From: a virus
Lineage: Duplodnaviria > Heunggongvirae > Uroviricota > Caudoviricetes
IMG/VR virus record: IMGVR_UViG_3300013383_000019
Direction: 5' to 3' (one strand)
Length of the DNA stretch: 64,000 nucleotides
This document shows positions 19,533 through 64,000 of this stretch, in pieces. The translations under genes and the position numbers were made by a program. The notes beneath the pieces are model-generated. The model did not search any database. It was not told the origin of the DNA and saw only the letters and a program-made list of their open reading frames with translations. Position 1 is the stretch's first letter. Every line of letters starts with the position of its first letter.

Positions 19533-19610
19533 ACAACCACCTCGCCCTTGATTATATCATATAATCCGGCGTCATAAAATCATGAGCGGAACAAAACAAA
19601 AACGGGACGG

Positions 19611-20307: not shown

Positions 20308-20331
20308 AGCAAAGCAAAGGAGCGTAAAACC

Positions 20332-20637
20332 ATGACCCTTACAGCCGGTATTCTCAGCGTCCTTTTCGTCCTCGCCCTCGTCACAGCGTCCTTCTTCCTC
20401 GGCATGCGCATTTCGAATCTCTATCACCGGCATGAGCAGGAGGCGATCAGCAGCGCCCTCCGCCGCAATAAGGAAGCCGCGCATGAGAACTATCTCATGT
20501 CCGAGCGGGAACGCTGGTGGAACGCGTACAGCGCGACATCTGCCAAGACAGGTTCAAGCTCCAAAGCGCAGGTAATCCCCGTCGAGTTCACCGATAAGCT
20601 GAGCTCCGAAGGAAAGGCGACGATACGGATTCACTAA
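20332..20637 (+). CDS. Membrane protein, 101 aa.
   Basis: Track ORF with an N-terminal TM helix. Confidence 0.45.
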   Translation: MTLTAGILSVLFVLALVTASFFLGMRISNLYHRHEQEAISSALRRNKEAAHENYLMSERERWWNAYSATSAKTGSSSKAQVIPVEFTDKLSSEGKATIRIH

Positions 20638-49487: not shown

Positions 49488-49865
49488 ATGGAAGAACTGC
49501 GCTTTGTAAACGCCGGCTTGAAGCATGCCGTCTGCGCGAATCATGTCATCGCCGTTCTTAACCCGCGCACCATGACCTCGAAAGAATAGGTGAAAGCCGC
49601 CAAAGGCCGTAAGCATCTGCTTGATGCGACGGTCGGGCGCAAAATCCGCTCCGTCATTCTCTTTAACGAGGGCACCGTTATGCTCTCCTCTCTCCGGTTT
49701 GAAACGCTGCTCATGCGCCTCAACGGCGATATGCGCGGCAACCTCTATGATCGGGATAGCGAATACGCTGAAACCGATCCTGAAAACACGGACGGCGTCG
49801 AGGCGGATTCCCTCATTAATAATGAAGAAGGAAAGGAGGAATCAACCTTCGATGAAGGTAATTGA
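49488..49865 (+). CDS. RemA/DUF370-like protein with an in-frame TAG at codon 34 (49587-49589) and an acidic C-terminal extension.
   Basis: MEELRFVNAGLKHAVCANHVIAVLNPRTMTSKE*VKAAKGRKHLLDATVGRKIRSVILFNEGTVMLSSL aligns with B. subtilis RemA (..[46 protein letters not shown]..) on both sides of the TAG. Confidence 0.55.
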
Positions 49866-51879: not shown

Positions 51880-52241
51880 CGCTTTCTCAGCTAAACGAAG
51901 CTGTGCGCCAGGCGGTTGCGGGTACGCTGTGTGACCCTGACAAGGTGGAAGTCCTCATTTCCCTGGGCTTCCCCTCGTTGGGGCCTCCGGCGGGTGTCGA
52001 AGTTTCCCATGGTTATCTCGGCTTTGACTGGGAGGGCGAAGGGTTCCGACTGGTTCCCGCCAGCGAGCTGGTTGAATGGCGCAAGAACCGGGATAACCCC
52101 CTCCCTCCGCTGGAACAAACCATGGATGATGGGCGGCGCAAGCTTCATACGCTGCGCTGCCCCGCCTGCCCCAACGAAGTTAAACGAACCGATCGATATT
52201 GCCCGCAATGCGGGCAGAGATTAAAAAGGAGCACGCAATGA
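51876..52241 (+). CDS. Hypothetical protein with a C-terminal zinc ribbon.
   Basis: CPACPNE..CPQCGQ. Confidence 0.5.
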   Translation: MTLSQLNEAVRQAVAGTLCDPDKVEVLISLGFPSLGPPAGVEVSHGYLGFDWEGEGFRLVPASELVEWRKNRDNPLPPLEQTMDDGRRKLHTLRCPACPNEVKRTDRYCPQCGQRLKRSTQ

Positions 52242-52960
52242 TTTGGCTTACCGGCGATAAACACGGCGATTATAGTTCCGTCGAACTTTTCTGCGAGTCC
52301 CATGACGTCGGTAAAGACGCAGGCGGAGATATCATGGTTGTGCTTGGCGATAACGGGGTGAATTACTTTGGCGGCAAACGGGATAGAAAACTCAAGGCCG
52401 AGCTCACCACTTTGCCGCTGACCTTCTTTATGGTTCGCGGCAATCATGATCAGCGCCCCAGCCGCAAGGTCTGCCGCGAGGAAGACTATGTCAGTTCTTA
52501 TCTTTCAGGCCCCGTGCTCGTCGAGGATGAGTTTCCAAATATTCTCTATGCGAAAGACGGCGGCCTGTATGATTTCAGCGGCATGAGCGTCATGGTGATC
52601 GGCGGTGCTTACAGCATCGATAAATTTATCCGGCTCGAGCGTCAGGCGCAGGGATTCCCGCAATATCGCTGGTTCCCCGATGAACAGCTTTCGAAATCTG
52701 AAAGAGATTCTATTCTGGAAACCGCGCGCGTCCATCGCCCCGATGTTATCCTCTCTCATACCTGCCCCCAGAGCATGATCCCCTGGGATCGATGCGCTCC
52801 CAATATTTATGGAGGCCCTCCCGATTATACCATGGAACGCTGGATGGACGAGGTAGACGCCGCCGCGCTCGAGCCTGAATGGTTTTGCGGGCACTGGCAT
52901 CTTGATCGCCGCGTGCCGCCCCGCACCCGTTTTCTGTATCATGATTTTATTGATTTCTGA
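52238..52960 (+). CDS. Calcineurin-like metallophosphoesterase (lambda-PPase-type Ser/Thr phosphatase).
   Basis: Motifs LTGDKHGD, VLGDNGVNYFG and VRGNHDQ; RBS aaaaggag. Confidence 0.7.
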   Translation: MIWLTGDKHGDYSSVELFCESHDVGKDAGGDIMVVLGDNGVNYFGGKRDRKLKAELTTLPLTFFMVRGNHDQRPSRKVCREEDYVSSYLSGPVLVEDEFPNILYAKDGGLYDFSGMSVMVIGGAYSIDKFIRLERQAQGFPQYRWFPDEQLSKSERDSILETARVHRPDVILSHTCPQSMIPWDRCAPNIYGGPPDYTMERWMDEVDAAALEPEWFCGHWHLDRRVPPRTRFLYHDFIDF

Positions 52961-52969
52961 GGTGATAAA

Positions 52970-53326
52970 ATGCTTGGCGATAATGTAATCTTCGGGGTCG
53001 GTAAAGACGTCCCCGTCGTCGTGAACAGCGAAGGCGGCAAGCAAAGCCGCAGCCCTTATGCTTTCCAGCTTCTGCCCGTGCATGCAATGTTTGCCGCGGC
53101 TGAAGTCGCGAAGGCCGGTGCTGAGAAATACGGCGAAACCTTCGCCTGCCGTAACTATACAAAAATCCCGCCCGAGGAGCATATCGGGCATTGCATCCAA
53201 CATCTGTACGCTTATCTTGCCGGCGATATCAGCGATGATCATCTGGCGCACGCCATTGTCCGCGCGCTCTTCGCTTATGAGACAGATAAGCTGGCGCGTG
53301 AAAGCGAGGGGACGCCCTGTGCCTGA
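52970..53326 (+). CDS. Hypothetical protein, 118 aa.
   Basis: Track ORF. Confidence 0.45.
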   Translation: MLGDNVIFGVGKDVPVVVNSEGGKQSRSPYAFQLLPVHAMFAAAEVAKAGAEKYGETFACRNYTKIPPEEHIGHCIQHLYAYLAGDISDDHLAHAIVRALFAYETDKLARESEGTPCA

Positions 53327-53828
53327 AACCGCCGTCGATGTCTTCGCCTGCGATCTCTCGCTCCATCGCCCCGGCTTTGCGCTGCTTCATTGTGAGAATA
53401 ATACGATCACCGTGCGCGAGCTCAGCAATGTCAACAACAAGTATGCCCGCAAGAAAACGCATGGCCAGATGCTTCTGGAGATTGCGCGCGAATAGAAGCG
53501 ATATATGACCACCTACCCAAACGCCATATTAGTTCGCGAGAAAGCAATTTACCCCGGCCGCTATCAGATGAAGACCATCGGGGTTTTGCATAAGGTTGTC
53601 GGCGTGGCCGATCTTTATGCCTGGCATTTGACAGGCAGAGAGTTTGAAGAGATCGATCCTCGCATGACCAAGCGCATCGTCACCGGCGATGCTAACGCGG
53701 AGAAAGATCGTGTCGCCGAAATGCTGGATGATTACGTTGGCGCTCAGCGCTATGCCTGCGACGACGAATCTGATGCGGTAGCGGTAGGCGTCGCGTGGCT
53801 TATTCAAAATAAAATTTTTCAAATGTGA
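53319..53828 (+). CDS. RuvC-like Holliday-junction resolvase with an in-frame TAG at 53493-53495.
   Basis: GTG start. N-terminal VDVFACDLSLHRPGFALL (RuvC D-x-G/S-type motif); C-terminal DESDAVAVGVAW matches the RuvC D.ADA.A.A motif. Track ORFs 53058..53495 and 53505..53828 are in frame and are separated by TAG-AAG-CGA-TAT. Confidence 0.55.
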
Positions 53829-53842
53829 AAAAGGGGGCATGA

Positions 53843-53863
53843 AAATGTTCCCTTTATTATATG
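53843..53863 (+). promoter_or_regulatory. Conserved phage promoter motif, copy 5 of 5.
   Basis: aaaatgttccctttattatat 20 nt upstream of the ATG at 53883. Confidence 0.55.
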
Positions 53864-53882
53864 AAAGGAGTTTGATTCCGAA

Positions 53883-54095
53883 ATGACGCTTTATACTCTT
53901 CCCGGCTGCCCCATGTGCGACCTGCTTGCCGAGCGGCTCGCGCAGCTTTAGATCCCATGCAATATTGTTTCCGATGCGGAGCAGCTGAAGGCAAAAGGCA
54001 TTCAGGTTGTCCCCGCCCTCGAAGACAAGGACGGCAATCTCATGAACTTTGCGCAGGCTATGAAATATCTCAGCAAAGGAGTATCTGTTGAATGA
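53883..54095 (+). CDS. nrdH: NrdH/glutaredoxin-like redoxin with an in-frame TAG at codon 23 (53949-53951).
   Basis: MTLYTLPGCPMCDLLAERLAQL*IPCNIVSDAEQLKAKGIQVVPALEDKDGNLMNFAQAMKYL has the CPxC redox motif and NrdH/Grx-like spacing on both sides of the TAG; ATGA overlap with nrdD. Confidence 0.55.
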
Positions 54096-56413
54096 TCCCC
54101 GACAAATATGCGCGCTATCGTCCGGAAGCAAATTTCATCAGACGTTATATGGATGAAAAATGCGCCGCCGAAAGCAGCGACTATGATCCAAACTCCAATG
54201 TCAGTTCAAAGAATCTGGCCACCCTCGCGTCCGAAAGCGGTAAGCGCGGCCGCATCTATACCAGCCGGTTGATGATGCACGATATGCTCACCGCCATGTA
54301 CGGCGAGGAAGAGGCCGACAGCTACATTGACAACCTCGAAACCCATCGTGTCTATTGCCATGATGAAACCGGCCAAACCCCGCAGATCTATTGCGCCAGC
54401 ATCACCATGTACCCGTTCCTACTGCACGGCTTGAAGGGGCTGGGCGGCACGTCGGATGCTCCCAAGACGCTGCAAAGTTTCGCCGGCGGGTTTGTCAATC
54501 TGGTGTTCGCCGCCTCCGCTCAGGTGCTCGGCGCGATTGCCACTCCAGAGTTTCTCGCCTATATGAACTATTTCCTCGTCAAGGAATACGGCGAAGATTA
54601 TTATCTGAAGCCTGATACGCAGGCCGAGCTCTTTGGCCGCAAGCGCACCATTGATAACGTGATCACCGATACCTTCGCGCAGGTTGTCTACTCGGTCAAT
54701 CAACCGGCGGCGGCGCGCGGCAATCAGGCCGTCTTCTGGAATATTTCCTATTTTGATGAGCCGTATTTCCGCGGGCTGTTCGAAGGTTTCGCCTTCCCGG
54801 ACGGCACAGTAATGACCGATCTCTGGGAGTCCCTCTGGTGGCTGCAGGTTCGGTTTATGAAGTGGTTTAATCAGGAGCGGCTCCGCAAGATCATCACCTT
54901 CCCGGTCGAAACGTTCTCTCTCCTGAACAACGGCAAGACGGCTGTTGACCAGCGGGCACTGAAGCATATCGCCGAGATGTATGCCGAAGGGCACAGTTTT
55001 TTCACTTATACCAGCGATAGCGTGGATAGCTTGAGTTCGTGCTGCTTTGCGCCGGATACACTGTTCTCCGTCTGGGACCAGCATAACACATTGCTTGTCG
55101 GGGCTGCAGAGCGTCTTTACCAGATGCTTGAACAGGAACAGGATTTTCGTGTTCGGGTTATGCTCGGTGAGGAAGTGGTTCCCGCGACTCTCATTCGTCT
55201 CCCCGGCCGTCAGATGTATTTTATCACAATCGACGTCAAGCCGAACGCCCGCCGTATGTATGAGGTGACGGATAACCATCTTTTCCCCACCCGGCGCGGA
55301 GACGTCCAGGCGAAGGAGCTCGTCGAGGGGGATGAAGTCCAGTGTTGGGATCCCGAAAGCAGGATGTATACATACCGCCCGGTATCTGAGGTGATCGAGA
55401 GCGCCAATACATACGATTATGTTTACTGCCTCGAGGTTGATGATGGGTGCGAGCCCTACTTCATGCTTCCCTCCGGAGTAATTACGCATAACTGCCGCCT
55501 GAAAAACAACATCGTTGAAAACCAGTTCACTTACAGCCTTGGCGCGGGCGGCATCGCGACCGGCTCCAAGCGCGTCATGACCATCAATATCAACCGGCTC
55601 GTTCAGGGCTGCGGCGGCGATCTGGCCAAGGTCAAAGCCTCGCTTGACGATCTGACCGCGCATGTCCATCGCTATTTGAAAGCGTATAACGCGATGGTGA
55701 AGGATGCGCAGGCCAAGCATATGATCCCGCTTTATGACGCAGGGTTCGTTTCGCCGGAGAAGCAGTATCTTACCGTTGGCATCAACGGTCTGGTCGAGGC
55801 GGCGGAGTATCTGGGCATTCCGGTCGGTGACAACAAGGCTTACGGCGAGTTCACTGATCTCATCCTTGATACGATTCACCGGCGGAACGTGGCCGATGCC
55901 GAGCCGGGCGTTATGTTTAACACGGAGTACGTGCCAGCCGAAAGCTTAGGCGTGAAGAACGCCAAATGGGATAAAGCCGACGGGCTCTCCGTCCCGAGAG
56001 CGTGTTATAACAGCTATTTCTTCGTGGTTGAAGATCCTAAAACAACGGTTCTTGATAAGATTCGGCTGCATGGCGATCGTTATATCCGCAATCTCGACGG
56101 CGGCAGCGCCTGCCATATCAACCTCGAAGAACACCTCACCGCTCGCCAGTACGAGCTGCTCATTCTCAACGCGATTCATGAAGGCTGCTCGTATTTTACC
56201 TTCAACGTTCCCAATACCATCTGCAACGACTGCGGGTATATCAGCAAGCACAAGCTGGAGAAGTGCCCAAAGTGCAGCAGTGAAAATCTGGATTATGCCA
56301 CGCGCATCATCGGCTATCTGACCCGCGTGTCGAAGTGGTCGGCCGAGCGCAAGAATGAATATGACCGGAGGTATTTCGGTGGACAGGAATATGAAAATCA
56401 AACTGAATCCTGA
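54092..56413 (+). CDS. nrdD: Anaerobic ribonucleoside-triphosphate reductase NrdD (class III), containing a mini-intein.
   Basis: C-terminal zinc ribbon CNDCGY..CPKCSS plus the glycyl-radical motif RIIGYL; large catalytic core. Confidence 0.8.
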   Translation: MIPDKYARYRPEANFIRRYMDEKCAAESSDYDPNSNVSSKNLATLASESGKRGRIYTSRLMMHDMLTAMYGEEEADSYIDNLETHRVYCHDETGQTPQIYCASITMYPFLLHGLKGLGGTSDAPKTLQSFAGGFVNLVFAASAQVLGAIATPEFLAYMNYFLVKEYGEDYYLKPDTQAELFGRKRTIDNVITDTFAQVVYSVNQPAAARGNQAVFWNISYFDEPYFRGLFEGFAFPDGTVMTDLWESLWWLQVRFMKWFNQERLRKIITFPVETFSLLNNGKTAVDQRALKHIAEMYAEGHSFFTYTSDSVDSLSSCCFAPDTLFSVWDQHNTLLVGAAERLYQMLEQEQDFRVRVMLGEEVVPATLIRLPGRQMYFITIDVKPNARRMYEVTDNHLFPTRRGDVQAKELVEGDEVQCWDPESRMYTYRPVSEVIESANTYDYVYCLEVDDGCEPYFMLPSGVITHNCRLKNNIVENQFTYSLGAGGIATGSKRVMTININRLVQGCGGDLAKVKASLDDLTAHVHRYLKAYNAMVKDAQAKHMIPLYDAGFVSPEKQYLTVGINGLVEAAEYLGIPVGDNKAYGEFTDLILDTIHRRNVADAEPGVMFNTEYVPAESLGVKNAKWDKADGLSVPRACYNSYFFVVEDPKTTVLDKIRLHGDRYIRNLDGGSACHINLEEHLTARQYELLILNAIHEGCSYFTFNVPNTICNDCGYISKHKLEKCPKCSSENLDYATRIIGYLTRVSKWSAERKNEYDRRYFGGQEYENQTES
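55043..55492 (+). mobile_element. Mini-intein of 150 aa without an endonuclease domain, inside nrdD.
   Basis: N-terminal block C|CFAPDTLF; C-terminal VITHN|C; Hint-domain length; the flanks rejoin to a ..SSC-CRL.. extein. Confidence 0.6.
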
Positions 56414-56576
56414 TAAGGATTTCGTCGCGATGCTCAGGGGGAGAATAGCCGCTAACAACGGCTATTGCCCCTGCCGGGTCGAGAAGACTGATGATAACAA
56501 ATGTCCGTGCCTTGCGTTCCGGACGACAAAGGAATGTTGCTGCGGCCTCTATGTGCAGGTACCGGCCGATGATTAA
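56391..56576 (+). CDS. Second FTR-catalytic-chain-like small Cys protein.
   Basis: GYCPCRVEKTDDNKCPCLAFRTTKECCCGLY; paralog of 50513..50731. Confidence 0.45.
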   Translation: MKIKLNPDKDFVAMLRGRIAANNGYCPCRVEKTDDNKCPCLAFRTTKECCCGLYVQVPADD

Positions 56577-57045
56577 ATACACCGGTTACAGCGTCGTCCT
56601 GCAGGAAGTCCCTGATGAAATCAGTCTCGCGGTGGAGGTTTCAAACTGCCCGCATCGCTGCCCCGGCTGTCACTCGCCGGAGCTGCAGCAGGATGTCGGC
56701 TATGATCTTGAGCACGATCTTCCAACTTTACTCAAGGAGTATGCGGGCCGAATTACCTGCGTCTGCTTTATGGGTGAGGGGAATGACCGAGACGCGCTGG
56801 CGCGATGCCTGATGTCGGTGCGGAAGGCGGGACTTAAAACCTGCCTCTATTCCGGCTCGCAGGTGTTCGATCTCTCCCTTCAGTGCTGGGTTGATTACTA
56901 CAAAATCGGCCCCTACATTGAAGAGCGCGGTGGGCTCGACTCACCGAACACCAATCAGTCCATGTGGCTGCTGTCATCCGGCAAAAACGGTATGGCAATG
57001 AACTACTCCAATATCACTTATAAATTCCAACATAGAAAGGTTTGA
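56569..57045 (+). CDS. nrdG: Anaerobic RNR activating protein NrdG (radical SAM).
   Basis: CPHRCPGCHS cluster; about 158 aa; immediately downstream of nrdD. Confidence 0.7.
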   Translation: MIKYTGYSVVLQEVPDEISLAVEVSNCPHRCPGCHSPELQQDVGYDLEHDLPTLLKEYAGRITCVCFMGEGNDRDALARCLMSVRKAGLKTCLYSGSQVFDLSLQCWVDYYKIGPYIEERGGLDSPNTNQSMWLLSSGKNGMAMNYSNITYKFQHRKV

Positions 57046-57049
57046 TGTG

Positions 57050-57226
57050 ATGGGTGCTCCTCAAATTATTGTAATTATTCTGTATTCGCTTTCTTTCCTT
57101 GTGAATTTGCTAAACGCTCTTAAAGAGAAAGACCCGACTAAAATAGCAGCCGGCTGTATCGGGTCGGTTGTAGGAACAGGAATGATGGTCGGCCTGCTCC
57201 TCTGGGGCGGTTTCTTTGGAGGTTAA
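57050..57226 (+). CDS. Small two-TM membrane protein, 58 aa.
   Basis: MGAPQIIVIILYSLSFLVNLL...GMMVGLLLWGGFFGG. Confidence 0.35.
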   Translation: MGAPQIIVIILYSLSFLVNLLNALKEKDPTKIAAGCIGSVVGTGMMVGLLLWGGFFGG

Positions 57227-57230
57227 TATT

Positions 57231-57458
57231 ATGGGCGAAGTAAAACGCGTCTGCTCCTGTAAAAAAGGCGGCTGTGCGGTGAGGTATAAAACGCTCGTTC
57301 GAGATTACGAGCACACGCTTGTCCGCTGTCAGAACCTGAATCTGTATTGCGACTATTTGCTGAAACACTTTCTAGGTCAGTCGCAGCGCGACGCCGTCAT
57401 GGAACGCTTCAGCGGGATGCCTGGCTATAGCGAAGCGGAGGCGCTCGGAGTCGAATGA
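57231..57458 (+). CDS. Cys-rich small protein, 75 aa.
   Basis: RBS ggaggt; CSCKKGGC..C..C. Confidence 0.45.
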   Translation: MGEVKRVCSCKKGGCAVRYKTLVRDYEHTLVRCQNLNLYCDYLLKHFLGQSQRDAVMERFSGMPGYSEAEALGVE

Positions 57459-57652
57459 CCAACTCCTTCATTGTTTCCGCGCTCCACACAGGCCGGAACG
57501 TCGAAGTTTATGCTGTTCGTAACGATAAGAACGGCTACCCGCAATTCCTCGTCTATGAAAATCGTCAATGGTGTTGGCGTTCTGCAAAAAACTACGAGCC
57601 GCTGTCTGCGGCCGGAAAGGAAATGCCTGTAAACGGATATGAAATTGAGTGA
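57455..57652 (+). CDS. Hypothetical protein, 65 aa.
   Basis: Track ORF with a 4-nt overlap. Confidence 0.4.
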
Positions 57653-58880
57653 ACTGGAAACGATCGAGCAGACTGACCCGCAAGTGTCTGCCCTAATTCG
57701 TAAAGAATATCTGCGTCAGACGGGCGGAATCGAACTGATCGCCTCGGAGAATTATCCAAGTCCCGCCGTGCTGGCCGCGGCCGGTTCTATTCTGACCTGT
57801 AAATACGCCGAAGGGTATCCCGGCAGGCGCTATTATGGCGGTTGTGAGTATATTGACGAAATCGAGCGTCTGGCCATTGAGCGCGCGAAGCAGCTCTTCG
57901 GGGCCGAACATGCTAATGTGCAGCCGCATTGCGGCACCACGACCAACAACGCCGTCTACGCTGCGGTGCTCAAACCGGGCGATAAGGTGCTGGGGATGTC
58001 GCTCAGCGGCGGCGGCCACCTGAGCCATTGCAATCCGCAAGGCCAGGGCGGTCGGCTTTACGACGCGGTGCTCTACGGGGTTAATGAAGAAACCGGCCTG
58101 ATCGACTACGACAGGGTTTATGACCTCGCTCAGCAGCATCGGCCGAAGCTCATCGTCTGCGGCGCTTCCGCTTATTCCCGTGTGATCGATTTCAAAAAGT
58201 TCCGCGAGATTGCCGATAGCGTCGGCGCTTATCTTCTGGCCGATATCGCGCATATCGCAGGTCTGGTCGCGACGGGGCTTCATCCTTCTCCTGTCCCCTA
58301 CGCTGATTTTGTAACGACTACCACACATAAAACGTTACGCGGTCCTCGCGCCGGGTTGATTCTGTGCAAAGCCGAGTATGCCAGGCAGATTGATCTTGCG
58401 GTGTTCCCCCGCCTGCAGGGCGGCCCCTTGGAACATATCATCGCAGCCAAAGCTATTGCCTTTAAGGAAGCGCTAGAACCCGGCTTTAAGCAGTATCAGA
58501 AGCACGTGCTAAAAAACGCGAAGACGTTCGAGCGGGTTCTTACCGAACGCGGCGTCCGTCTTGTCACCGGCGGCACCGATAATCATCTGCTTCTGCTCAA
58601 TGTCTCCCATGCGGGCAAGACAGGCAAGGAAATTGAGGCCGCTCTCGGCGCGTGTCATATCACGGTTAACAAGAATACCATTCCCGGCGAGAAGCTAAGC
58701 CCCAACGTGGCAAGCGGTATCCGCATCGGCTCTCCCGCCATTACGACGCGCGGCATGCGTGAGCCGGAAGTAAAATTTATTGCTAACACAATCGCCGATA
58801 TTCTTGAAGGCGCGAACCCGTCGGATTATGCGAAAGACGTTCGCGATCTTGCCCTTAATTTCCCGCTGTTTATGAGGTGA
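57639..58880 (+). CDS. glyA: Serine hydroxymethyltransferase.
   Basis: IELIASENY; PLP-binding motif [14 protein letters not shown]; 413 aa. Confidence 0.85.
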
Positions 58881-58883
58881 AGC

Positions 58884-59156
58884 ATGAAAACATTGAATGA
58901 AATTATCGATGGACTTTCCGCTCTCCGCGACCAGGACCATGAGCTGATTGACGATGCGATTACCACATTGATCTATCTGGATGAGGTTGCCGCCGCAATG
59001 GGATGGGACGTTCTCAAGCGGGTTTCTAAAGCCTATGCCGGCGGGGACCTGTACTTGTATGGGCGCAACGGGATGATTTACAGCCGCGTATCGGGCAAAG
59101 CAATGCCTGTTGAAGACGCGATTGATGAATTCGTGGCGAAGGTAGAATCCGACTAA
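58884..59156 (+). CDS. Hypothetical protein, 90 aa.
   Basis: Track ORF. Confidence 0.45.
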   Translation: MKTLNEIIDGLSALRDQDHELIDDAITTLIYLDEVAAAMGWDVLKRVSKAYAGGDLYLYGRNGMIYSRVSGKAMPVEDAIDEFVAKVESD

Positions 59157-59218
59157 CTTCGCATATTGCCGGCCTGCGCCGTGCAATGAGTGCGGAAGCC
59201 GCCCGGAGCCCATTACAG

Positions 59219-59449
59219 CTAACACCGAATGGGCAATCCGGACTGTTTCTCGATACTAACCTAAGTACCGATTCGTATCGACTCCCGGCCTGTGGGGACT
59301 TTTACGTGTGACGTCTAGCCCTGTTTAACAAAGATAGTGTCTCCGCCCGTCCTCCGGCGTTTGTCTTCTACGAATCCGTGCTCTTTGAGTATTGAGATAA
59401 CTTCCCGAGAAGATATGTTCTTCTTCAAGAAAATCACCTCCGCACTCAT
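59219..59449 (-). CDS. hicA: HicA-family mRNA-interferase toxin (orphan) with two in-frame TAG codons; it ends in TAG followed by one codon and a TAA.
   Basis: MSAEVIFLKKNISSREVISILKEHGFVEDKRRRTGGDTIFVKQG*TSHVKVPTGRESIRIGT*VSIEKQSGLPIRC aligns with the HicA consensus ..LIKLLEK.GF..VRQKGSH.IF.HP.G...TVP.H.GKDLK.GTLRSILKQAGL; the second TAG sits at the conserved GT-L position. Confidence 0.55.
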
Positions 59450-59504
59450 TATACGGCACGGGGCGACAATATACAACCATTAAAAGCAAAGGTGATGATA
59501 CGGT

Positions 59505-60215
59505 TTGGCAAAACGAAAAACTATCGATTATTCTAACCCGCCGGAGACACTGGACGATCATCCGTTCTTCGGCCTCCAGCTTGACGGCGAACAGAGGGCG
59601 TTTCGCGACGCGATCTGGGACCCCGAAAAGCTGATCGTTCTCTGCGATGCGAAAGCCGGCTGCGGCAAAACAACCATCGCAGTTATGACGGCCGAACTGC
59701 TCGTCAAATATGGGCGTTATGAGGGCATCGTTTACGTCACTTCCCCTGTACAGGAACAGAAGATCGGGTTTCTCCCCGGCACCGTGCAGGATAAGCTCTC
59801 TGTTTATAACGAGCCGTTTTATCAGGCGGCGCTCAAGGCCGGCATCGATGTAATGCACGCTGTCAAGCAGGAGAACATGATGAACGTAAAGGAGGATACC
59901 GCGTATATCGACTGTGTGTCCCACACCTTCTTCCGCGGGCAAAACATCGAAAATAAGGTCGTTATCATCGATGAAGCGCAGAACTATTACTTCGATGAGC
60001 TCAAGAAAACCCTGACCCGCATCCATGACAGCTGCAAAACAATCGTCATCGGTCATACCGGCCAGTGCGATCTGTATCACCGGCCTGAACATTCCGGCTT
60101 TGTGGATTATCTGGCCGAGGCGAGATATGAACCTTTTGCCGCCGTCTGTAAACTGACCCATAACTATCGCGGTGTTGTGTCCAACTGGGCTGACAGCGTA
60201 GAACATAGATCCTGA
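59505..60215 (+). CDS. phoH: PhoH-like ATPase.
   Basis: Walker A DAKAGCGKTTIA; PhoH-like size and conservation; probable TTG start. Confidence 0.7.
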   Translation: MAKRKTIDYSNPPETLDDHPFFGLQLDGEQRAFRDAIWDPEKLIVLCDAKAGCGKTTIAVMTAELLVKYGRYEGIVYVTSPVQEQKIGFLPGTVQDKLSVYNEPFYQAALKAGIDVMHAVKQENMMNVKEDTAYIDCVSHTFFRGQNIENKVVIIDEAQNYYFDELKKTLTRIHDSCKTIVIGHTGQCDLYHRPEHSGFVDYLAEARYEPFAAVCKLTHNYRGVVSNWADSVEHRS

Positions 60216-60226
60216 GAGGAGAACAT

Positions 60227-60844
60227 ATGGACGGACTTGTACTTCCTATTCTTTCTGATAACGTTGGCAATTATCAGTTGCCAGATCCTGAACTGGTATC
60301 CTATTACACGCTGGAAAAAGAGCGCAAACTCTGGCTCGACGGCGAAGTCGATATCAACATGCTCGAGTATGAGCGGCTGATCCTCCGCTGGAACATTGAA
60401 GACGCGGGCAAGCCGGTCAATGAGCGCAAACCGATCTGGCTGTATCTGATGAATTACGGCGGCGACGCCGATATGATGTGGTCTTTCATTGATACAATCG
60501 AATCCTCTGTGACGCCGGTTTATACGGTTAACATGGGCGTGTGCGCTTCAGCGGCTGGTATCATCTTCCTCAGCGGTCATAAGCGTTTCATGCTTCCCCG
60601 CGCTCGCGTTGTAATCCACGAGGGCAGCGCCTCCCTTTCCGGCGACAGCACCAAGGTGTTCGACGCGGCCGACAGCTACAAAAGTTCCCTAAAAGCCATG
60701 AAGGAACATATCCTCAAGAAGACCAACATTCCTGCTAAGCTGCTGAATAAAAAGCGCAACAATGACTGGGAACTGGATTCCGTTTTTTGCCTTGAGCACG
60801 GAGTCTGCGACATCATTGTGAAAACAATGGACGAAATTATTTAA
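60227..60844 (+). CDS. ClpP-family serine peptidase.
   Basis: PIWLYLMNYGGDADMMWSFIDTIE..VNMGVCASAAGIIFLSG..RVVIHEGS is a ClpP-like fold with Ser and His. Confidence 0.65.
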   Translation: MDGLVLPILSDNVGNYQLPDPELVSYYTLEKERKLWLDGEVDINMLEYERLILRWNIEDAGKPVNERKPIWLYLMNYGGDADMMWSFIDTIESSVTPVYTVNMGVCASAAGIIFLSGHKRFMLPRARVVIHEGSASLSGDSTKVFDAADSYKSSLKAMKEHILKKTNIPAKLLNKKRNNDWELDSVFCLEHGVCDIIVKTMDEII

Positions 60845-60877
60845 CCCACCCCATCATTGCGGTCTGCCGTTTACAAA

Positions 60878-60915
60878 CAAAAATGGACATGCCCAGTAGA
60901 AGGCCGTCCATTTTG
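60878..60915. terminator. Bidirectional rho-independent terminator.
   Basis: Stem aaaatggac / gtccatttt with T-runs on both strands. Confidence 0.55.
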
Positions 60916-60926
60916 AAGCGAGGTCG

Positions 60927-61139
60927 CTCACCGGTGATCATCAAAATTCACACCGGTTTGCCGCCCGATACTCTTCTAGGTTCCCGCTGGGAGTTCTTTG
61001 CTGCGGGGTACCGTAACGTGGAGCCCGTTCTCAGGGTTCTCAAGAACCGTATGGCTTCCCTTACCACGGTTTTTGAGCTTGCGCCACTGCTACTTTTCGA
61101 GTATCGAGATAACCTCTTTGCTACCTAACGGCTTATGCA
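60927..61139 (-). CDS. hicA: Second HicA-family toxin paralog with two in-frame TAG codons (codons 17 and 55).
   Basis: MHKPLGSKEVISILEK*QWRKLKNRGKGSHTVLENPENGLHVTVPRSKELPAGT*KSIGRQTGVNFDDHR; GSH, TVP and GT-[TAG] align with the HicA consensus. Confidence 0.55.
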
Positions 61140-61266
61140 TTGAAGCCACCTCCTGTGGCTATTATACACAAACACGCGGCAGACTGCAATGTTTTCTTTT
61201 GTGAACGGGGAGATGGAGCGGTACAGCAATATTAAGGGGCGATCGCGTTAACCCCGCCGGTTTCTA

Positions 61267-61431
61267 TTACCGGCAATGCTGCTCCCAAGTACAAATAGTG
61301 TACTTAGGCTCAGGTTTGTTTTTCCTGGCCTTTTCGAGTTGCCCCGTCAGCCAGGTTTTCATCTATGAGATCACCTTTTTGACGACGTACTCAAGAAACA
61401 GTTCGATCATAACGTCACAAACATGTTCCAT
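61267..61431 (-). CDS. Small protein upstream of hicA-2, MEHVCDVMIELFLEYVVKKVIS*MKTWLTGQLEKARKNKPEPKYTICTWEQHCR. It is either read through at the TAG or is two coupled mini-ORFs joined TAG-ATG.
   Basis: RBS aaaggag; the TAG is immediately followed by ATG. Confidence 0.3.
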
Positions 61432-61549
61432 TGGCACATCGCTCCTTTCACATAGCGCTACGCATCCCGATGCATCAGGTGCGGCTATGTAAACGCGATC
61501 GCCTCCGCTCCTCTCCCCGCCGACACAATTATATCATAAGGAGAACACA

Positions 61550-61867
61550 ATGACATTTGACTTATTCGATGAAATTCTGCACCGATTGATGGAATGGAAC
61601 GACTTCTGCGAAAAGGTTTCGGATGCAACAGACGACGCCATACGCCTTCCTGAACTGTGCCAGCTGGACGATCCCATTGTAAACCTGCTGGAAATTATTA
61701 TGAAAGATAAAGAAAACGACTGGACCGGCTACTTCTGTTGGGAGCTTAACTTCGGCCGGCGATATAAACCTGGCATGATAACGGACGGGGACAAAGACAT
61801 TCCGCTCGCCACCACACGCGATCTGTATAACCTGCTGCTTGAAAACATGAAGGAGGATAAGGTTTAA
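61550..61867 (+). CDS. Hypothetical protein, 105 aa.
   Basis: Track ORF with RBS aaggaga. Confidence 0.5.
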   Translation: MTFDLFDEILHRLMEWNDFCEKVSDATDDAIRLPELCQLDDPIVNLLEIIMKDKENDWTGYFCWELNFGRRYKPGMITDGDKDIPLATTRDLYNLLLENMKEDKV

Positions 61868-62298
61868 TGGAAAACTATCTGCGCATCACCGGCACAAAAG
61901 AGCAGCTCGATGAAGCCGTCCTGAAACTGTGCGGCAAGAAAGGCGTCGTTAAATTTAAGCCCAGCGGCGCTTATCTTAAACAGCATCCCGCAATTCCTGA
62001 AACCGGCGTGAAGGAGAAATCTCCCGTTACATTCGATCCAGGGTTTAATGATGAGCGGCTGCTTGCCTTCAAAACGGTTTATATGCCGCCCTTTATGCTT
62101 TATAAAGGCATTACAAAGCAGCTTCCGGATATTGAAATGGAATATGCCTATATGGACCGCTCTCGGTATCATGAAGTCGGTCATGGTTTTTATAAAGCCG
62201 GTAAGACGCATAATTGCGAACAGAAAAAATTCAAAGCGTCCTCACCGCAGCTGGAACCCCTATACAGAAGCCTTCTTCAAAAAATGAAATATAATTAA
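61867..62298 (+). CDS. Hypothetical protein, 143 aa.
   Basis: Track ORF with a 1-nt overlap. Confidence 0.5.
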   Translation: MENYLRITGTKEQLDEAVLKLCGKKGVVKFKPSGAYLKQHPAIPETGVKEKSPVTFDPGFNDERLLAFKTVYMPPFMLYKGITKQLPDIEMEYAYMDRSRYHEVGHGFYKAGKTHNCEQKKFKASSPQLEPLYRSLLQKMKYN

Positions 62299-62313
62299 AA
62301 GGAGATAAATACA

Positions 62314-62502
62314 ATGCAATATATTTTTAACGCCCCTGAACCAGAGGAAATGAGCAAAGCCTTAAAGCGTCTTCTTGCCGCTCAAAAAGAATATGATGCG
62401 GCCATGAAGGAAATGAGGCGCGTTACTTTTGTCCCGTGCTTTGCAGAAATTGAAGCTACCAATGAACAGTTTTCCTCAGAGAAAAATGGGGCGGCAGAAT
62501 AA
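62314..62502 (+). CDS. Hypothetical protein, 62 aa.
   Basis: Track ORF with RBS aaggagataaataca. Confidence 0.4.
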   Translation: MQYIFNAPEPEEMSKALKRLLAAQKEYDAAMKEMRRVTFVPCFAEIEATNEQFSSEKNGAAE

Positions 62503-62505
62503 TTA

Positions 62506-62670
62506 CTGCCACCCTTCCTCGGATATAATTTTCTCCAGCAGATTATAAATTGCTTCAAGCGCATCTTTGAGCCCTGGTACATCGGCGGATTCTTGGATCT
62601 TCTCTACAGCTTCACTCAGCTTATCAAGTTCTGCGCCTATTTTCTTTTTCTCGTTGTCTGTCACATGCGC
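62506..62670 (-). CDS. Small coiled-coil protein, 54 aa, with a GTG start.
   Basis: RBS ggaggtgg; convergent with 62314..62502. Confidence 0.3.
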
Positions 62671-62721
62671 CACCTCCACTTACATTGTAACACATCGCAT
62701 TTTAGAAAGGAATATTAAAAT

Positions 62722-63045
62722 ATGAAGAAGGCAATGTTATCTCAGCCGATGGCTGGCAAAACCGAACAGGAAATTATTGAAACCCGCAACCGTGCCATTA
62801 AGGCGCTGGAGAACATGGGCTATGTTGTCGTCAATACACCCTTTACCGATGAATGGTACAACAAGGAGGCGATGACCGAGCGCGGCGTCGTTCAGATTCC
62901 CTTGTCTTTTCTCGCAAAGAGCCTTGAAAATATGAGCCTGTGTCATGCCGCTTACTTTTGCAATGGTTGGGAGCAGGCACGCGGCTGCCGGCTTGAACAT
63001 GAGGCGGCTAAGGCTTATGGGGTCGAAATTCTTTATGGGGAATGA
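62722..63045 (+). CDS. DUF4406-like protein (nucleoside deoxyribosyltransferase-like fold).
   Basis: N-terminal ..QPMAGKTEQEI and C-terminal ..GWEQARGCRLEHEAAKAYGVEI resemble DUF4406. Confidence 0.45.
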   Translation: MKKAMLSQPMAGKTEQEIIETRNRAIKALENMGYVVVNTPFTDEWYNKEAMTERGVVQIPLSFLAKSLENMSLCHAAYFCNGWEQARGCRLEHEAAKAYGVEILYGE

Positions 63046-63361
63046 TCTACCTGTCTCGTCAAAGGAGGGACTGCTTTGTATTGCTGTATGTGTGGCCGTG
63101 ATCTGACCAACGTCTTCTATGAACCGGCTGGATTATTTTCGCACGAATACATTTGCCTGGACTGTTTGAGAAAAATTAAAGGAGAATGCCATGTTCGGAA
63201 TCGCAGAGAAGAATATACTATTGACTGAACAAAAATGCTTTGACGCCGGCAAAGTGAAAATTCTTATAACAGAACATTTCGCTGCGGACGGCCAACCATT
63301 CGCCGACCTCTTCAAAGAATTCATCCTTCGCAATCTTAAAATTGCGTCTTAATTCCACTTA

Positions 63362-63370
63362 TGCTATAAT
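63362..63370 (+). promoter_or_regulatory. Extended -10 promoter (TGcTATAAT) for the serine recombinase gene.
   Basis: TGnTATAAT 50 nt upstream of the ATG at 63420; a hairpin aacccgcat-gcaa-atgtgggtt lies in the leader. Confidence 0.4.
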
Positions 63371-63419
63371 CAACCCGCATGCAAATGTGGGTTGTTTCTC
63401 TATCGAAAGGAGGATGGGA

Positions 63420-64000
63420 ATGAAACAACCCTGGGTAGCCGCTCTTTACATGCGGCTAAGCAACGATGACGGAGAGCCGGGCGACAGTGGCAGCATTGAA
63501 ACGCAGCGCCGGATTCTTCATCAATATTGCGAAGACAACAACATTGCGATTTATGATGAATACGTCGACGATGGATGGTCTGGTACAAATTTTGACCGAC
63601 CGGCGTTTCAACGTATGATGGCGGACATTGACAAAGGCGCGTTGAATTGCGTTATCACAAAAGACCTCTCCCGGTTGGGGCGCGAACACATTCAGGTGGA
63701 TCGCTACTTGGAATACGTGTTCCCTGAGAAGCGCGTCCGCTATGTGGCGGTAAACGACGGCGAAGACTCCGAGAAAGGTATGAGCGACTTCTCCCCTTTT
63801 AAGAACCTCTTCAACGAGTGGTACGCCAAAGACACCAGCCGGAAAGTAAAGGCCGCGCTAAAAGCGAAATATGAAAAAGGCGAACGCCTAGGCCCCACAC
63901 CGCCGCTCGGTTATATATGGAGTCCGAAAGAAAAAGGCAAACTCCTCATCGACGAAGACACCCGCTGGATCATCGAAAAGATATACGCGCTTGCGCTGGA
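63420..64000 (+). CDS. Large serine recombinase (resolvase/invertase N-terminal catalytic domain), N-terminal 193 codons; continues past the window end.
   Basis: AALYMRLSNDDGEPGDSGSIETQ (catalytic Ser-containing motif) and VITKDLSRLGRE; RBS aaaggagg. Confidence 0.75.
   Translation, partial: MKQPWVAALYMRLSNDDGEPGDSGSIETQRRILHQYCEDNNIAIYDEYVDDGWSGTNFDRPAFQRMMADIDKGALNCVITKDLSRLGREHIQVDRYLEYVFPEKRVRYVAVNDGEDSEKGMSDFSPFKNLFNEWYAKDTSRKVKAALKAKYEKGERLGPTPPLGYIWSPKEKGKLLIDEDTRWIIEKIYALAL

What the first reader, a model, noticed from the sequence alone, without database searches (positions are those of the whole stretch)
59219..61431. Two orphan HicA toxin paralogs without recognisable HicB partners, both amber-interrupted, flanking phoH-clpP
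Two HicA-family toxin genes sit on the minus strand around the PhoH and ClpP-like genes: HicA-1 at 59219..59449 and HicA-2 at 60927..61139. HicA-1 is convergent with the gene at 58884 and has no upstream partner. HicA-2 is preceded only by a 54-codon ORF (61267..61431) that also contains a TAG and does not resemble HicB. HicA-2 is followed by a bidirectional terminator.

Phage-borne toxin genes whose translation depends on an amber suppressor would be inert in the lysogen and become active only when suppression is available.
Basis: partly seen in the sequence, partly recalled or inferred. Interest (0 to 1): 0.6.

Follow-up and report, generated by a model that had tools for sequence, protein, structure and literature searches.

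The report
Antitoxin-less HicA genes gated by amber codons
A roughly 118-kb gut phage carries two stand-alone HicA toxin-family genes with no HicB antitoxin, each packed with in-frame TAG codons that only the phage's own amber-suppressor tRNA can read (most likely as leucine), so the stop codon itself seems to act as the safety catch.

Summary
HicA-1 is 59213..59428 (or ..59449) on the minus strand and has 3 in-frame TAGs. HicA-2 is 60928..61140 on the minus strand and has 2. Both match Pfam HicA_toxin over its full length, above the cut-off.

The window is the replication module of a ~118-kb phage that carries an integrase. TAG is not used as a terminator there and is a very rare sense codon: 19 in 24,068 codons. 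The two HicAs hold 5 TAGs in 141 codons, about 45-fold more (P about 1e-7).

About 4.7 kb beyond the window start the phage encodes a tRNA with anticodon CUA. A related phage has one too.

All TAGs and both reading frames are kept in 5-6 other variants that are 89-96% identical, and substitution patterns are coding-like downstream of the first TAG. HicA-2 is broken in two relatives. HicA-1 lacks the catalytic His.

No HicB was found by Pfam, NCBIfam, PHROG, tblastn or a fold model, whereas canonical phage and bacterial relatives have one adjacent. Each cassette has its own promoter-like site and Shine-Dalgarno sequence, and its mRNA is predicted to pair 5' to 3' across the ribosome-binding site.

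Unexpectedly, TAG appears to encode Leu rather than the Gln reported for phages.

Verdict: real, a new variant of known kinds, function inferred.

The parts
59213..59428 (-). HicA-1 coding sequence. Likely start is TTG 59428 (alternative ATG 59449); stop is TAA 59213-59215. Has GGD in place of the catalytic GSH.
   Evidence: PF07927 at 33.2-35.9 bits over the full profile. PHROG 353. Intact in 7 of 7 variants, pN/pS 0.10-0.25. His replaced by Asp in alignments.
59315..59317 (-). HicA-1 in-frame TAG no. 1.
   Evidence: Sequence. Conserved in all 7 variants.
59261..59263 (-). HicA-1 in-frame TAG no. 2, at the conserved 'GT-L' position.
   Evidence: Aligns with Leu in 'IGTLVSIEKQSGL' of the closest bacterial HicA and with V/L/F in solved HicAs. 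Conserved in 7 of 7 variants.
59219..59221 (-).
   Evidence: Conserved in 7 of 7 variants.
59435..59453 (-). HicA-1 -10 box TATAAT (59453-59448) and Shine-Dalgarno GGAGGTG (59441-59435).
   Evidence: Read from the sequence. TATAAT and the SD are conserved in related loci. Function not tested.
59163..59196 (.). Distal arm of the 34-nt inverted repeat bracketing HicA-1. In the mRNA its inner part pairs with the 5' end and SD.
   Evidence: the repeat finder. Score 19 against a shuffle mean of 8.2, sd 1.0, 0 of 200 shuffles as high. Fold z = -8.9. Consensus fold has 2 compensatory pairs.
59439..59472 (.). Proximal arm of the same inverted repeat. It overlaps the promoter and SD of HicA-1.
60928..61140 (-). 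HicA-2 coding sequence (ATG 61140, TGA 60930-60928). Keeps the GKGSH motif.
   Evidence: PF07927 at 52.6-57.6 bits. Aligns with solved HicAs at E 2.5e-5. Intact in 6 variants, pN/pS 0.30-0.39. Broken in L079 and L088.
61090..61092 (-). HicA-2 in-frame TAG no. 1 (codon 17).
   Evidence: Conserved in the 6 intact variants.
60976..60978 (-). HicA-2 in-frame TAG no. 2 (codon 55), at the same 'GT-L' position as in HicA-1.
61149..61189 (-). HicA-2 promoter-like site: TTGCAG (61189-61184), 17 nt, TG-extended TATAAT (61166-61161). SD is AGGAGG (61154-61149).
   Evidence: Read from the sequence. TATAAT and the SD are invariant in 6 variants. Function not tested.
60880..60914 (.). Hairpin with U/T runs on both sides: a bidirectional terminator shared by ClpP (+) and HicA-2 (-).
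   Evidence: Predicted as the terminal 14-bp hairpin followed by UUUUUGUUUGU in the HicA-2 transcript fold. Sequence.
61267..61431 (-). orf54: a small amphipathic, basic-tailed protein with one TAG (61363-61365). Not HicB-like.
   Evidence: Two sequence types, both 54 codons, with the TAG at codon 23 kept. No family hit. Transcript fold z = -9.8. Flanking inverted repeats 61238-61259/61482-61503 and 61197-61213/61512-61528.
61528..61556 (-). Promoter-like site upstream of orf54: ATGTCA, 17 nt, TG-TATAAT.
   Evidence: Consensus scan, 10 of 12 matches.
58884..59156 (+). orf90, convergent neighbour of HicA-1. Not HicB-like.
   Evidence: No Pfam, NCBIfam, PHROG or PADLOC hit. AF2 model pLDDT 65.7 with helix-helix-helix-strand-strand-helix. 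No fold match.
59505..60844 (+). PhoH-like (59505-60215) and ClpP-like (60227-60844) genes of the plus-strand operon that the two HicA cassettes flank in antisense.
   Evidence: PF02562 at 104 bits; PF00574 at 67.7 bits.

Best explanation
The window is the replication and nucleotide-metabolism module of a ~118-kb gut phage that carries an integrase. In this phage TAG is a rare sense codon, read by the phage's own tRNA(CUA).

HicA-1 and HicA-2 are stand-alone gene cassettes set antisense to the early operon. Each has its own sigma-70-like promoter and a strong Shine-Dalgarno sequence; HicA-2 also has a terminator. Neither has a HicB partner.

The proposed mechanism has these steps.
1. In a cell without the suppressor tRNA, host release factor 1 stops translation after 37 residues of HicA-1 and 16 residues of HicA-2. 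No functional protein is made, so no antitoxin is needed.
2. Predicted 5'-3' pairing of each mRNA, which covers the ribosome-binding site, adds a second block.
3. When tRNA(CUA) is expressed, the TAGs are read, most likely as Leu. The tRNA sits in the tRNA array next to the lysis and structural genes, on the same strand as the HicAs.
4. Full-length HicA proteins then appear. HicA-2 keeps the catalytic His and would cleave RNA late in infection or on induction. HicA-1 has Asp in place of that His and more likely only binds RNA.

Shown here: the ORFs, the family match, the lack of HicB, the TAG enrichment and conservation, the suppressor tRNA, and the predicted RNA folds.

Inferred: the timing, the toxicity, the role of release factor 1, and the benefit to the phage.
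For: **Family**
- Both ORFs match PF07927 over its full length, above the cut-off, and match PHROG 353.
- HicA-2 aligns with solved HicAs, with its GSH on the catalytic motif.

**TAG is a sense codon in this phage**
- Single in-frame TAGs sit in conserved genes: RuvC-like, RemA-like, glutaredoxin-like and PAPS-reductase-like.
- All 116 predicted genes end in TGA (68) or TAA (48).

**Suppressor tRNA**
- tRNA(CUA) lies at L083 12562-12638, in a locus that joins the window through 100%-identical overlaps (L083 > L048 > window).
- A 123-kb relative has one at L084 12574-12650.
- The two differ by a compensatory A30-U40 to G30-C40 change in the anticodon stem.

**TAG enrichment**
- 5 TAGs in 141 HicA codons against 19 in 24,068 codons elsewhere; Fisher P = 2e-7.

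**Conservation**
- All three HicA-1 TAGs are kept in 7 of 7 variants, and both HicA-2 TAGs in all 6 intact variants.
- pN/pS is 0.10-0.25 for HicA-1 and 0.30-0.39 for HicA-2.
- Substitutions downstream of the first TAG are still biased to synonymous changes: ratios 0.24 and 0.40.

**No HicB**
- Pfam, NCBIfam, PHROG and PADLOC are negative for the neighbouring ORFs.
- tblastn with two phage HicBs finds nothing in 86 kb.
- The orf90 model is not HicB-like.
- Positive controls: phi105, AM106 and two bacterial relatives all have HicB adjacent.

**mRNA structure**
- HicA-1 transcript fold z = -8.9, with the SD paired to the 3' end. The fold is kept in 6 variants with 2 compensatory pairs.
- HicA-2 transcript fold z = -3.7, with the SD paired just before the terminator.

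**Precedent**
- Recoded stop codons are preferentially placed in lysis and transmembrane genes and in a homing endonuclease of other recoded phages (10.1101/2021.08.26.457843, section 8).
Against: - HicA-2 carries a 21-nt deletion plus a frameshift in the 123-kb relative, and a frameshift in L088. It is dispensable and may be on its way out.
- HicA-1 lacks the catalytic His.
- About 33 kb of the phage genome was not seen, so a HicB encoded in trans cannot be excluded.
- There are no expression data. Promoters and transcript ends are read from sequence only. If the HicA-1 transcript starts at about 59441, only 6-7 bp of the 5'-3' pairing lie within the RNA.
- TAG enrichment could be inherited from a more heavily recoded donor phage rather than selected for gating. 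The cassettes show lower synonymous divergence than their neighbours (pS 0.09-0.24 against 0.34-0.57), which is compatible with recent transfer.
- Gene prediction used my own codon-usage scorer.
Confidence: 0.6

Rival explanations
1. The cassettes are decaying remnants of former hicAB modules: pseudogenes whose TAGs are ordinary nonsense mutations and which make no functional product.
For: - HicA-2 is clearly damaged in two relatives.
- HicA-1 lost the catalytic His.
- There is no HicB partner.
- The codon-usage score of the HicA ORFs was too low for my predictor to call them.
Against: - All five internal stops are TAG, with none TAA or TGA and no frameshift, whereas the other frames carry mixed stops.
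- Every TAG is kept in 5-6 other variants that differ at 4-11% of bases.
- pN/pS is 0.1-0.4, including downstream of the first TAG.
- Promoter, SD and reading-frame length are conserved.
- The phage reads TAG as sense in essential genes and encodes tRNA(CUA).
Confidence: 0.1
2. An unrecognised antitoxin is present. Candidates are orf54 (for HicA-2), orf90 (for HicA-1), or antisense RNA made by read-through of the plus-strand SHMT-orf90-PhoH-ClpP operon. On this reading the TAGs are just the phage's code.
For: - orf54 lies directly upstream of HicA-2 on the same strand. It is a genuine conserved-length ORF that diversifies between variants.
- orf90, SHMT and HicA-1 are present or absent together relative to L088.
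- Both HicA genes lie antisense within a plus-strand operon, so any read-through gives fully complementary RNA.
Against: - orf54 and orf90 give no HicB or other antitoxin hit in four libraries.
- The orf90 model has helix-helix-helix-strand-strand-helix, unlike the HicB N-terminal fold, and finds no structural match.
- orf54 stays intact where HicA-2 is broken.
- orf54 is replaced by a type only about 40% identical while HicA-2 stays about 86% identical.
- None of this explains the 45-fold TAG enrichment.
Confidence: 0.2
3. The proteins are not toxins. They are HicA-fold (double-stranded-RNA-binding-like) RNA-binding regulators used by the phage late in infection, so no antitoxin is needed. 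This applies above all to HicA-1.
For: - HicA-1 has Asp where the catalytic His sits, yet it is the better conserved of the two: pN/pS 0.10-0.25, intact in 7 of 7 variants.
- HicA-2 also lacks the second His of the common 'VPxH' stretch.
Against: - HicA-2 keeps G-S-H and scores 52.6-57.6 bits against the toxin family.
- The heavy layering of translational blocks (TAGs plus an occluded SD) is what one expects for a harmful product.
- The same design is found on small hydrophobic ORFs of the phage.
Confidence: 0.25

Closest known systems
Canonical phage hicAB type II toxin-antitoxin modules, for example Bacillus phage phi105 gp49/gp48 and Acinetobacter phage AM106 orf40/orf41
   Same: The toxin family is the same: 37-52% identity to HicA-2, with the same size and motifs (GSH, VTVP, GT[VL]KSI). 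Both are carried as accessory cassettes in temperate phages.
   Different: Those modules have a ~135-aa HicB about 60 nt downstream on the same strand and no in-frame stops. Here there is no HicB, there are 2-3 in-frame TAGs per gene, and HicA-1 lacks the catalytic His.
Stop-codon-recoded gut phages in which recoded codons are concentrated in lysis genes (Borges et al., preprint 10.1101/2021.08.26.457843; crAss-like, Agate, Garnet and Topaz clades)
   Same: - The phage encodes a suppressor tRNA.
- Early and replication genes and the integrase are compatible with the standard code.
- The recoded codon is preferentially placed in products that would be harmful if made early.
   Different: - Only about 15% of genes here carry a TAG, against 26-71% in those clades.
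- The most TAG-dense genes here are HicA toxin homologues and small hydrophobic ORFs, not structural genes.
- TAG appears to be Leu here. That paper states that only TAG to Gln and TGA to Trp were seen.
Type I toxin mRNAs such as hok, with 5'-3' fold-back inhibition (from my own knowledge of the hok/sok system)
   Same: The mRNAs are predicted to be unusually stable end to end, with the 5' end and SD paired to the 3' end.
   Different: The product is a HicA-fold protein, not a small membrane peptide. No antisense sRNA was identified. Transcript ends are unknown.
E. coli supP (leuX) amber suppressor and the TAG = Leu codes of chlorophycean mitochondria, NCBI tables 16 and 22 (from my own knowledge)
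   Same: A CUA-anticodon tRNA with tRNA-Leu features inserts Leu at UAG. LeuRS does not need the anticodon.
   Different: Here the tRNA is phage-encoded and has only a 5-nt variable loop and a 4-bp anticodon stem. Charging with Leu is inferred, not shown.

Membership tests
HicA toxin family (Pfam PF07927 / PHROG 353) | Full-length match to the family profile above the curated cut-off. | tested here: met
   HicA-1 scores 33.2-35.9 bits and HicA-2 52.6-57.6 bits, both over profile positions 1-58 of 58; cut-off 27. PHROG 353 gives E 5.8e-9 and 3.1e-14.
HicA toxin family (Pfam PF07927 / PHROG 353) | Catalytic Gly-Ser-His motif (His24 of Burkholderia pseudomallei HicA; the numbering is from my own knowledge). 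| tested here: inconclusive
   HicA-2 meets it: GKGSH aligns with the GS(H/A)H of chain 4c26_A. HicA-1 does not: TGGDT is in that position, whereas its closest bacterial relatives have TGSH and EGSH.
HicA toxin family (Pfam PF07927 / PHROG 353) | Ribosome-independent mRNA cleavage and growth arrest on expression. | not testable with these tools
   Needs an expression assay of the TAG-to-sense alleles.
hicAB type II toxin-antitoxin module | An adjacent, co-oriented HicB antitoxin gene (usually downstream of hicA). | tested here: not met
   - Downstream of both genes lie convergent plus-strand genes or a terminator.
- orf54 and orf90 give no HicB hit in Pfam, NCBIfam, PHROG or PADLOC.
- tblastn with the phi105 and AM106 HicBs gives E > 0.5 across 86 kb and the relatives.
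- Controls have HicB adjacent.
- About 33 kb of the genome was not examined.
Amber-recoded phages, genetic code 15 (TAG = Gln) | In-frame TAG in conserved genes, and TAG avoided as a terminator. | tested here: met
   RuvC-like, RemA-like, glutaredoxin-like and PAPS-reductase-like genes each carry one TAG. Stops are 68 TGA, 48 TAA and 0 TAG in 116 genes.
Amber-recoded phages, genetic code 15 (TAG = Gln) | A phage-encoded suppressor tRNA with anticodon CUA. | tested here: met
   L083 12562-12638: ARAGORN call, Rfam tRNA 39.9 bits. An orthologue is present in the related phage, with a compensatory stem change.
Amber-recoded phages, genetic code 15 (TAG = Gln) | TAG decoded as glutamine. | tested here: not met
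   **For Leu**
- Where one phage has TAG and its relative a sense codon in 83-91% identical orthologues, that codon is TTG (Leu) at 3 of 3 sites.
- It is CTN (Leu) at the two positions of the tail-fibre paralogue motif.
- HicA-1 'IGT#VSIEKQSGL' matches bacterial 'IGTLVSIEKQSGL'.
- Pfam scores are higher with L than with Q: by 2.5, 5.9 and 2.9 bits.
- The tRNA has a tRNA-Leu-like D arm and A73.

**Against Leu**
- One CAG-TAG and two AAG-TAG polymorphisms at variable sites.

This is computational inference only.
Amber-recoded phages, genetic code 15 (TAG = Gln) | The recoded codon is concentrated in late, lytic or harmful genes. | tested here: met
   HicAs have 35.5 TAG per 1000 codons against 0.79 elsewhere. 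Genes of 140 aa or fewer have 15 TAG in 5,188 codons; longer genes have 4 in 18,880. The TAG-bearing set includes holin-like and small hydrophobic ORFs.
Type I toxin-like mRNA control (fold-back inhibition) | Long-range 5'-3' pairing that occludes the ribosome-binding site. | tested here: inconclusive
   Predicted for HicA-1 (z = -8.9), HicA-2 (z = -3.7) and orf54 (z = -9.8). The HicA-1 inverted repeat is far above chance. Two compensatory pairs in 6 variants. Transcript ends are unknown.
Type I toxin-like mRNA control (fold-back inhibition) | A cis-encoded antisense RNA antitoxin. | not tested
   No Rfam match in 58800-61700. No transcript data.

The most novel reading that the evidence does not exclude
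A temperate gut phage runs a natural amber-to-leucine code through a tRNA-Leu-derived suppressor with a truncated variable arm. It uses TAG density in place of an antitoxin. The stand-alone HicA genes, and several small hydrophobic ORFs built the same way, are silent while host release factor 1 reads TAG as stop. They are unlocked only when a CUA suppressor tRNA appears. That could happen during the phage's own late phase, or when another amber-recoded phage superinfects a lysogen. In the second case the cassettes would act as suppressor-sensing abortive-infection traps.
Probability: 0.3. Interest if true: 0.85.

Novelty: new variant of a known kind. Interest (0 to 1): 0.68.

Why it matters
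Toxin-antitoxin biology assumes that a toxin gene needs a neutralising partner. Here the genetic code itself seems to do that job. This would be a compact, testable example of 'code-gated' gene expression.

It would extend the idea that recoded phages use stop codons to time lysis to a classical ribonuclease toxin family.

If TAG is confirmed to be Leu, this would be an amber reassignment in phages beyond the reported Gln. Current annotation tools, which assume table 15, would then mistranslate such genomes. It would also supply a naturally evolved, compact Leu-type amber suppressor tRNA.

Finally, it shows that gene callers using the standard code miss these toxins altogether. The public records called an antisense ORF instead.

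Tried and rejected
- **Close relatives in phage GenBank records:** megablast of 52000-64000 found none.
- **IMG/VR:** it holds only distant relatives, with PhoH 53-66% identical, ClpP-PhoH in the reverse order and no HicA. The lysin is at most 59% identical.
- **Word-indexed protein search with HicA-2:** it returned only one TAG-truncated fragment. That fragment did lead to the related 123-kb phage.
- **Walking the contig with a non-window protein:** I got round this with a homologue search on the lysin.
- **GTDB genome scan with HicA-1:** no prophage copy, only two distant bacterial HicAs. The host therefore remains unknown; Firmicutes is a guess from the SpoIID/SH3 lysin.
- **Suppressor tRNA isotype from similarity alone:** the best hits are annotated tRNA-Leu, but with E about 2. 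I treat this as supportive only.
- **GCGATCGC palindromes flanking orf54:** not enriched in the window, 4 against 3.9 expected. Idea dropped.
- **Inverted repeats around HicA-2 and orf54:** only marginally above chance, since a control region in PhoH reached a similar level. Only the HicA-1 repeat is solid.
- **orf90 structure model:** low confidence, and the fold search was uninformative.
- **Rfam:** nothing in the cassette region.
- **SNPs among near-identical contigs (99.4-99.5%):** too few to be informative.


Full report
**1. What is in the sequence**

On the minus strand there are two short ORFs that are readable only if TAG is read through.

- HicA-1 runs from 59449 (ATG) or, more likely, 59428 (TTG) down to TAA at 59213-59215. 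It has in-frame TAGs at 59315-17, 59261-63 and 59219-21.
- HicA-2 runs from ATG 61140 to TGA 60930-60928, with TAGs at 61090-92 and 60976-78.
- With X at the TAGs, both ORFs match Pfam HicA_toxin PF07927 over the whole profile: 33.2 and 52.6 bits against a cut-off of 27. Both match PHROG 353 'toxin'.
- HicA-2 aligns with solved HicA structures, with its GKGSH on the catalytic GSH. HicA-1 has TGGDT there.
- The five internal stops are all TAG. The other two frames of the same stretches carry mixed stops.

**2. What the window is**

- Nearly all genes are on the plus strand and form a phage replication and nucleotide-metabolism module. It includes a DnaE-like polymerase, primase-helicase, ligase, NrdD, SHMT, PhoH and a ClpP-like gene.
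- Exact-protein look-ups place the window on 112-119-kb metagenomic contigs from gut samples, including Hadza samples.
- By joining loci that are 100% identical in their overlaps I assembled 85,951 bp of the phage.
- Just past the window end lie a large serine recombinase and then the lysis and tail genes on the minus strand.
- Before the window start lie a lysin, a tRNA array and the terminase and portal genes.

**3. TAG is a sense codon, and the phage brings the suppressor**

- An ad hoc codon-usage gene finder that treats TAG as sense gives 116 genes. All end in TGA (68) or TAA (48). They carry only 19 in-frame TAGs in 24,068 codons.
- Some of those TAGs sit inside conserved domains: RuvC-like, RemA-like, glutaredoxin-like and PAPS-reductase-like.
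- The window itself has no tRNA.
- The tRNA array about 4.7 kb upstream of window position 1, on the minus strand, reads Ser(GCU), Met, Gly, Thr, Ala and a tRNA with anticodon CUA. The last is at L083 12562-12638, has an encoded CCA end, and scores 39.9 bits against the Rfam tRNA model.
- A related 123-kb phage (L079/L084; about 85% nucleotide identity here, with a tyrosine integrase in place of the serine recombinase) has the orthologous tRNA. It differs by a compensatory A30-U40 to G30-C40 change.

**4. TAG enrichment and conservation in the HicA genes**

- The HicAs hold 5 TAGs in 141 codons (35.5 per 1000). The rest of the phage has 0.79 per 1000. Fisher P = 2e-7.
- More generally, TAGs concentrate in small genes: 15 in 5,188 codons for genes of 140 aa or fewer, against 4 in 18,880 for longer genes. 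Several of these small genes are hydrophobic, holin-like or oriented against their neighbours.
- A PhoH homologue search gave further variants of the phage.
- HicA-1 is intact in 7 of 7 variants (93.5-96% nucleotide identity), with all three TAGs.
- HicA-2 is intact with both TAGs in 6 variants.
- pN/pS is 0.10-0.25 for HicA-1 and 0.30-0.39 for HicA-2. Downstream of the first TAG, substitutions remain biased to synonymous changes, with ratios of 0.24 and 0.40. The reading frames are therefore under selection beyond the 'stops'.
- Against this, HicA-2 has a 21-nt deletion plus a frameshift in the 123-kb relative and is frameshifted in L088.
- The more distant relatives L088 and L089 lack HicA-1.
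- Both genes are thus accessory cassettes, and HicA-2 is dispensable.

**5. No HicB**

- Canonical relatives have HicB next door. In phi105 and AM106 it lies 60 nt downstream. A Terracidiphilus HicA has it downstream, and a deltaproteobacterial one has a short HicB upstream.
- Downstream of HicA-1 here is the convergent orf90. Downstream of HicA-2 is a bidirectional terminator (60880-60914) and then ClpP.
- orf90, orf54 and the other small neighbours give no HicB or antitoxin hit in Pfam, NCBIfam, PHROG or PADLOC.
- tblastn with two phage HicBs finds nothing in 86 kb or in the relatives.
- A low-confidence AF2 model of orf90 is helix-helix-helix-strand-strand-helix and finds no structural match.
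- orf54 is a real gene. It occurs in two sequence types of identical length with the TAG at codon 23 conserved. But it stays intact where HicA-2 is broken and diverges independently of HicA-2.
- About 33 kb of the genome was not seen.

**6. Cassette architecture**

- HicA-1: TATAAT at 59453-59448, GGAGGTG, six bases, then TTG.
- HicA-2: TTGCAG, 17 nt, TG-extended TATAAT, AGGAGG, then ATG, followed by the terminator.
- A 34-nt inverted repeat brackets HicA-1. Its score is 19 against 8.2 +/- 1.0 in shuffles.
- The predicted HicA-1 mRNA is unusually stable (z = -8.9), with the SD paired to the 3' end. The fold is retained in six variants with two compensatory pairs.
- The HicA-2 transcript (z = -3.7) and the orf54 transcript (z = -9.8) are predicted to close in the same way.
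- Another TAG-bearing small ORF (995-1240) has nested flanking repeats.
- Transcript ends are unknown, so this layer is a prediction.

**7. Which amino acid?**

Published phage cases are TAG to Gln. The Borges et al. preprint states that only Gln and Trp reassignments were seen. Neither it nor three later phage papers I searched by term mention leucine.

Evidence here that points to Leu:

- At three sites in 83-91% identical orthologues, including the terminase, the relative has TAG where this phage has TTG.
- In a tail-fibre paralogue motif, 'YT[L]YKITGSGT[L]', TAG replaces CTN Leu at both Leu positions.
- Both HicAs have TAG at the family's 'GT-L' position. HicA-1 'IGT#VSIEKQSGL' equals 'IGTLVSIEKQSGL' in the closest bacterial HicA.
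- The RemA-like TAG aligns with Ile.
- Many other TAGs lie in hydrophobic segments.
- Pfam scores favour L over Q by 2.5, 5.9 and 2.9 bits.
- The suppressor has A73 and a D arm that matches annotated phage tRNA-Leu genes, though it has only a 5-nt variable loop.

Evidence against:

- One CAG-TAG and two AAG-TAG polymorphisms at variable sites.

I put TAG = Leu at about 0.75.

**8. Interpretation**

The best reading is that these are antitoxin-less HicA-family genes whose translation is gated by the amber codons, with mRNA structure probably adding a second block. In a standard-code cell they yield only 16- and 37-residue stubs. With the phage tRNA(CUA) they yield full-length proteins. HicA-2 is a plausible RNase. 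HicA-1 has His replaced by Asp and is more likely an RNA binder.

This fits the published idea that recoding keeps harmful late products off until the code switch. It extends that idea to a classical toxin family.

Rival readings are decay, an unrecognised antitoxin or antisense control, and non-toxic RNA-binding proteins. They are weighed in the rival-explanations section of this report, and none explains the TAG enrichment together with its conservation.

Timing, toxicity and benefit remain untested.

Noticed in passing
L084 within 16074-17750 (terminase) and 19433-20614; L079 5672-5869; L046 about 18621-19436; window 49488-49865: TAG appears to encode leucine in this phage group, not the glutamine reported for phages.
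- TTG (Leu) in this phage corresponds to TAG in the relative at 3 of 3 orthologous sites.
- CTN Leu corresponds to TAG in a tail-fibre motif.
- Family profiles favour L over Q.
- Counter-evidence: one CAG-TAG and two AAG-TAG polymorphisms.
   Followed up: partly
L083 12562-12638 (about 4.7 kb before window position 1, minus strand); L084 12574-12650: The amber-suppressor tRNA(CUA) has a tRNA-Leu-like D arm, A73, an encoded CCA end and only a 5-nt variable loop. Positions 31 and 39 are mismatched (C-C in one phage, C-U in the other), so the anticodon stem has only 4 base pairs.
   Followed up: partly
L048 949-1072, minus strand (just before the window start): A tRNA-like gene has intact acceptor, D and T arms but a 52-nt insertion in the anticodon loop. 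ARAGORN finds it only in intron mode and calls it Val(GAC). The insertion carries the motif GCGCTGACAGCAA, which recurs nearby.
   Followed up: no
window 995-1240 (+), 38810-38968 (-), 42127-42384 (-), 63176-63358 (-); L045 12738-13052 and 13976-14479 (-): Small, mostly hydrophobic ORFs with no family match carry 1-3 in-frame TAGs. Several have their own promoter-like site, a hairpin over the SD or flanking inverted repeats, and a terminator. This is the same design as the HicA cassettes.
   Followed up: partly
window 37870-38730, 49488-49865, 53319-53828, 53883-54095 (+): Four plus-strand genes each carry exactly one in-frame TAG: PAPS-reductase-like, RemA-like, RuvC-like and glutaredoxin-like. 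The RuvC-like and glutaredoxin-like TAGs were compared with relatives and are conserved there; the other two lie outside the loci fetched.
   Followed up: partly
window 59200-59450 and 61200-61450 compared with flanks: The HicA-1 cassette and the orf54 region are 92-98% identical to the 123-kb relative, while the flanking genes are 68-88% identical. Synonymous divergence of the HicAs is 0.09-0.24 against 0.34-0.57 for their neighbours. This suggests either recent cassette exchange or constraint at the nucleotide (RNA-structure) level.
   Followed up: partly
window 63420-64000 and beyond (L045 10699-12306) compared with L079 6263-7555: At the same position, this phage has a large serine recombinase and the 123-kb relative has a tyrosine integrase. 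The serine recombinase has a TAG five codons before its TAA, so it would be five residues longer when suppression is on.
   Followed up: no
L090 6204-6434 (inside the NrdD orthologue of window 54092-56413): One variant has an insertion of about 230 nt that splits NrdD into 617-aa and 160-aa calls. It could be a small intron or a mobile element.
   Followed up: no
L088 933-1111 compared with window 57455-59505: A relative whose PhoH is 88% identical lacks the whole SHMT-orf90-HicA-1 block. The gene before SHMT abuts PhoH there. SHMT, an auxiliary metabolic gene, therefore comes and goes together with HicA-1.
   Followed up: partly
window 60883-61128 (+); L043-L047 8192/8213-8407: Public gene calls made with the standard code annotate an ORF antisense to HicA-2 (64-71 aa) and miss both HicA genes.
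   Followed up: yes
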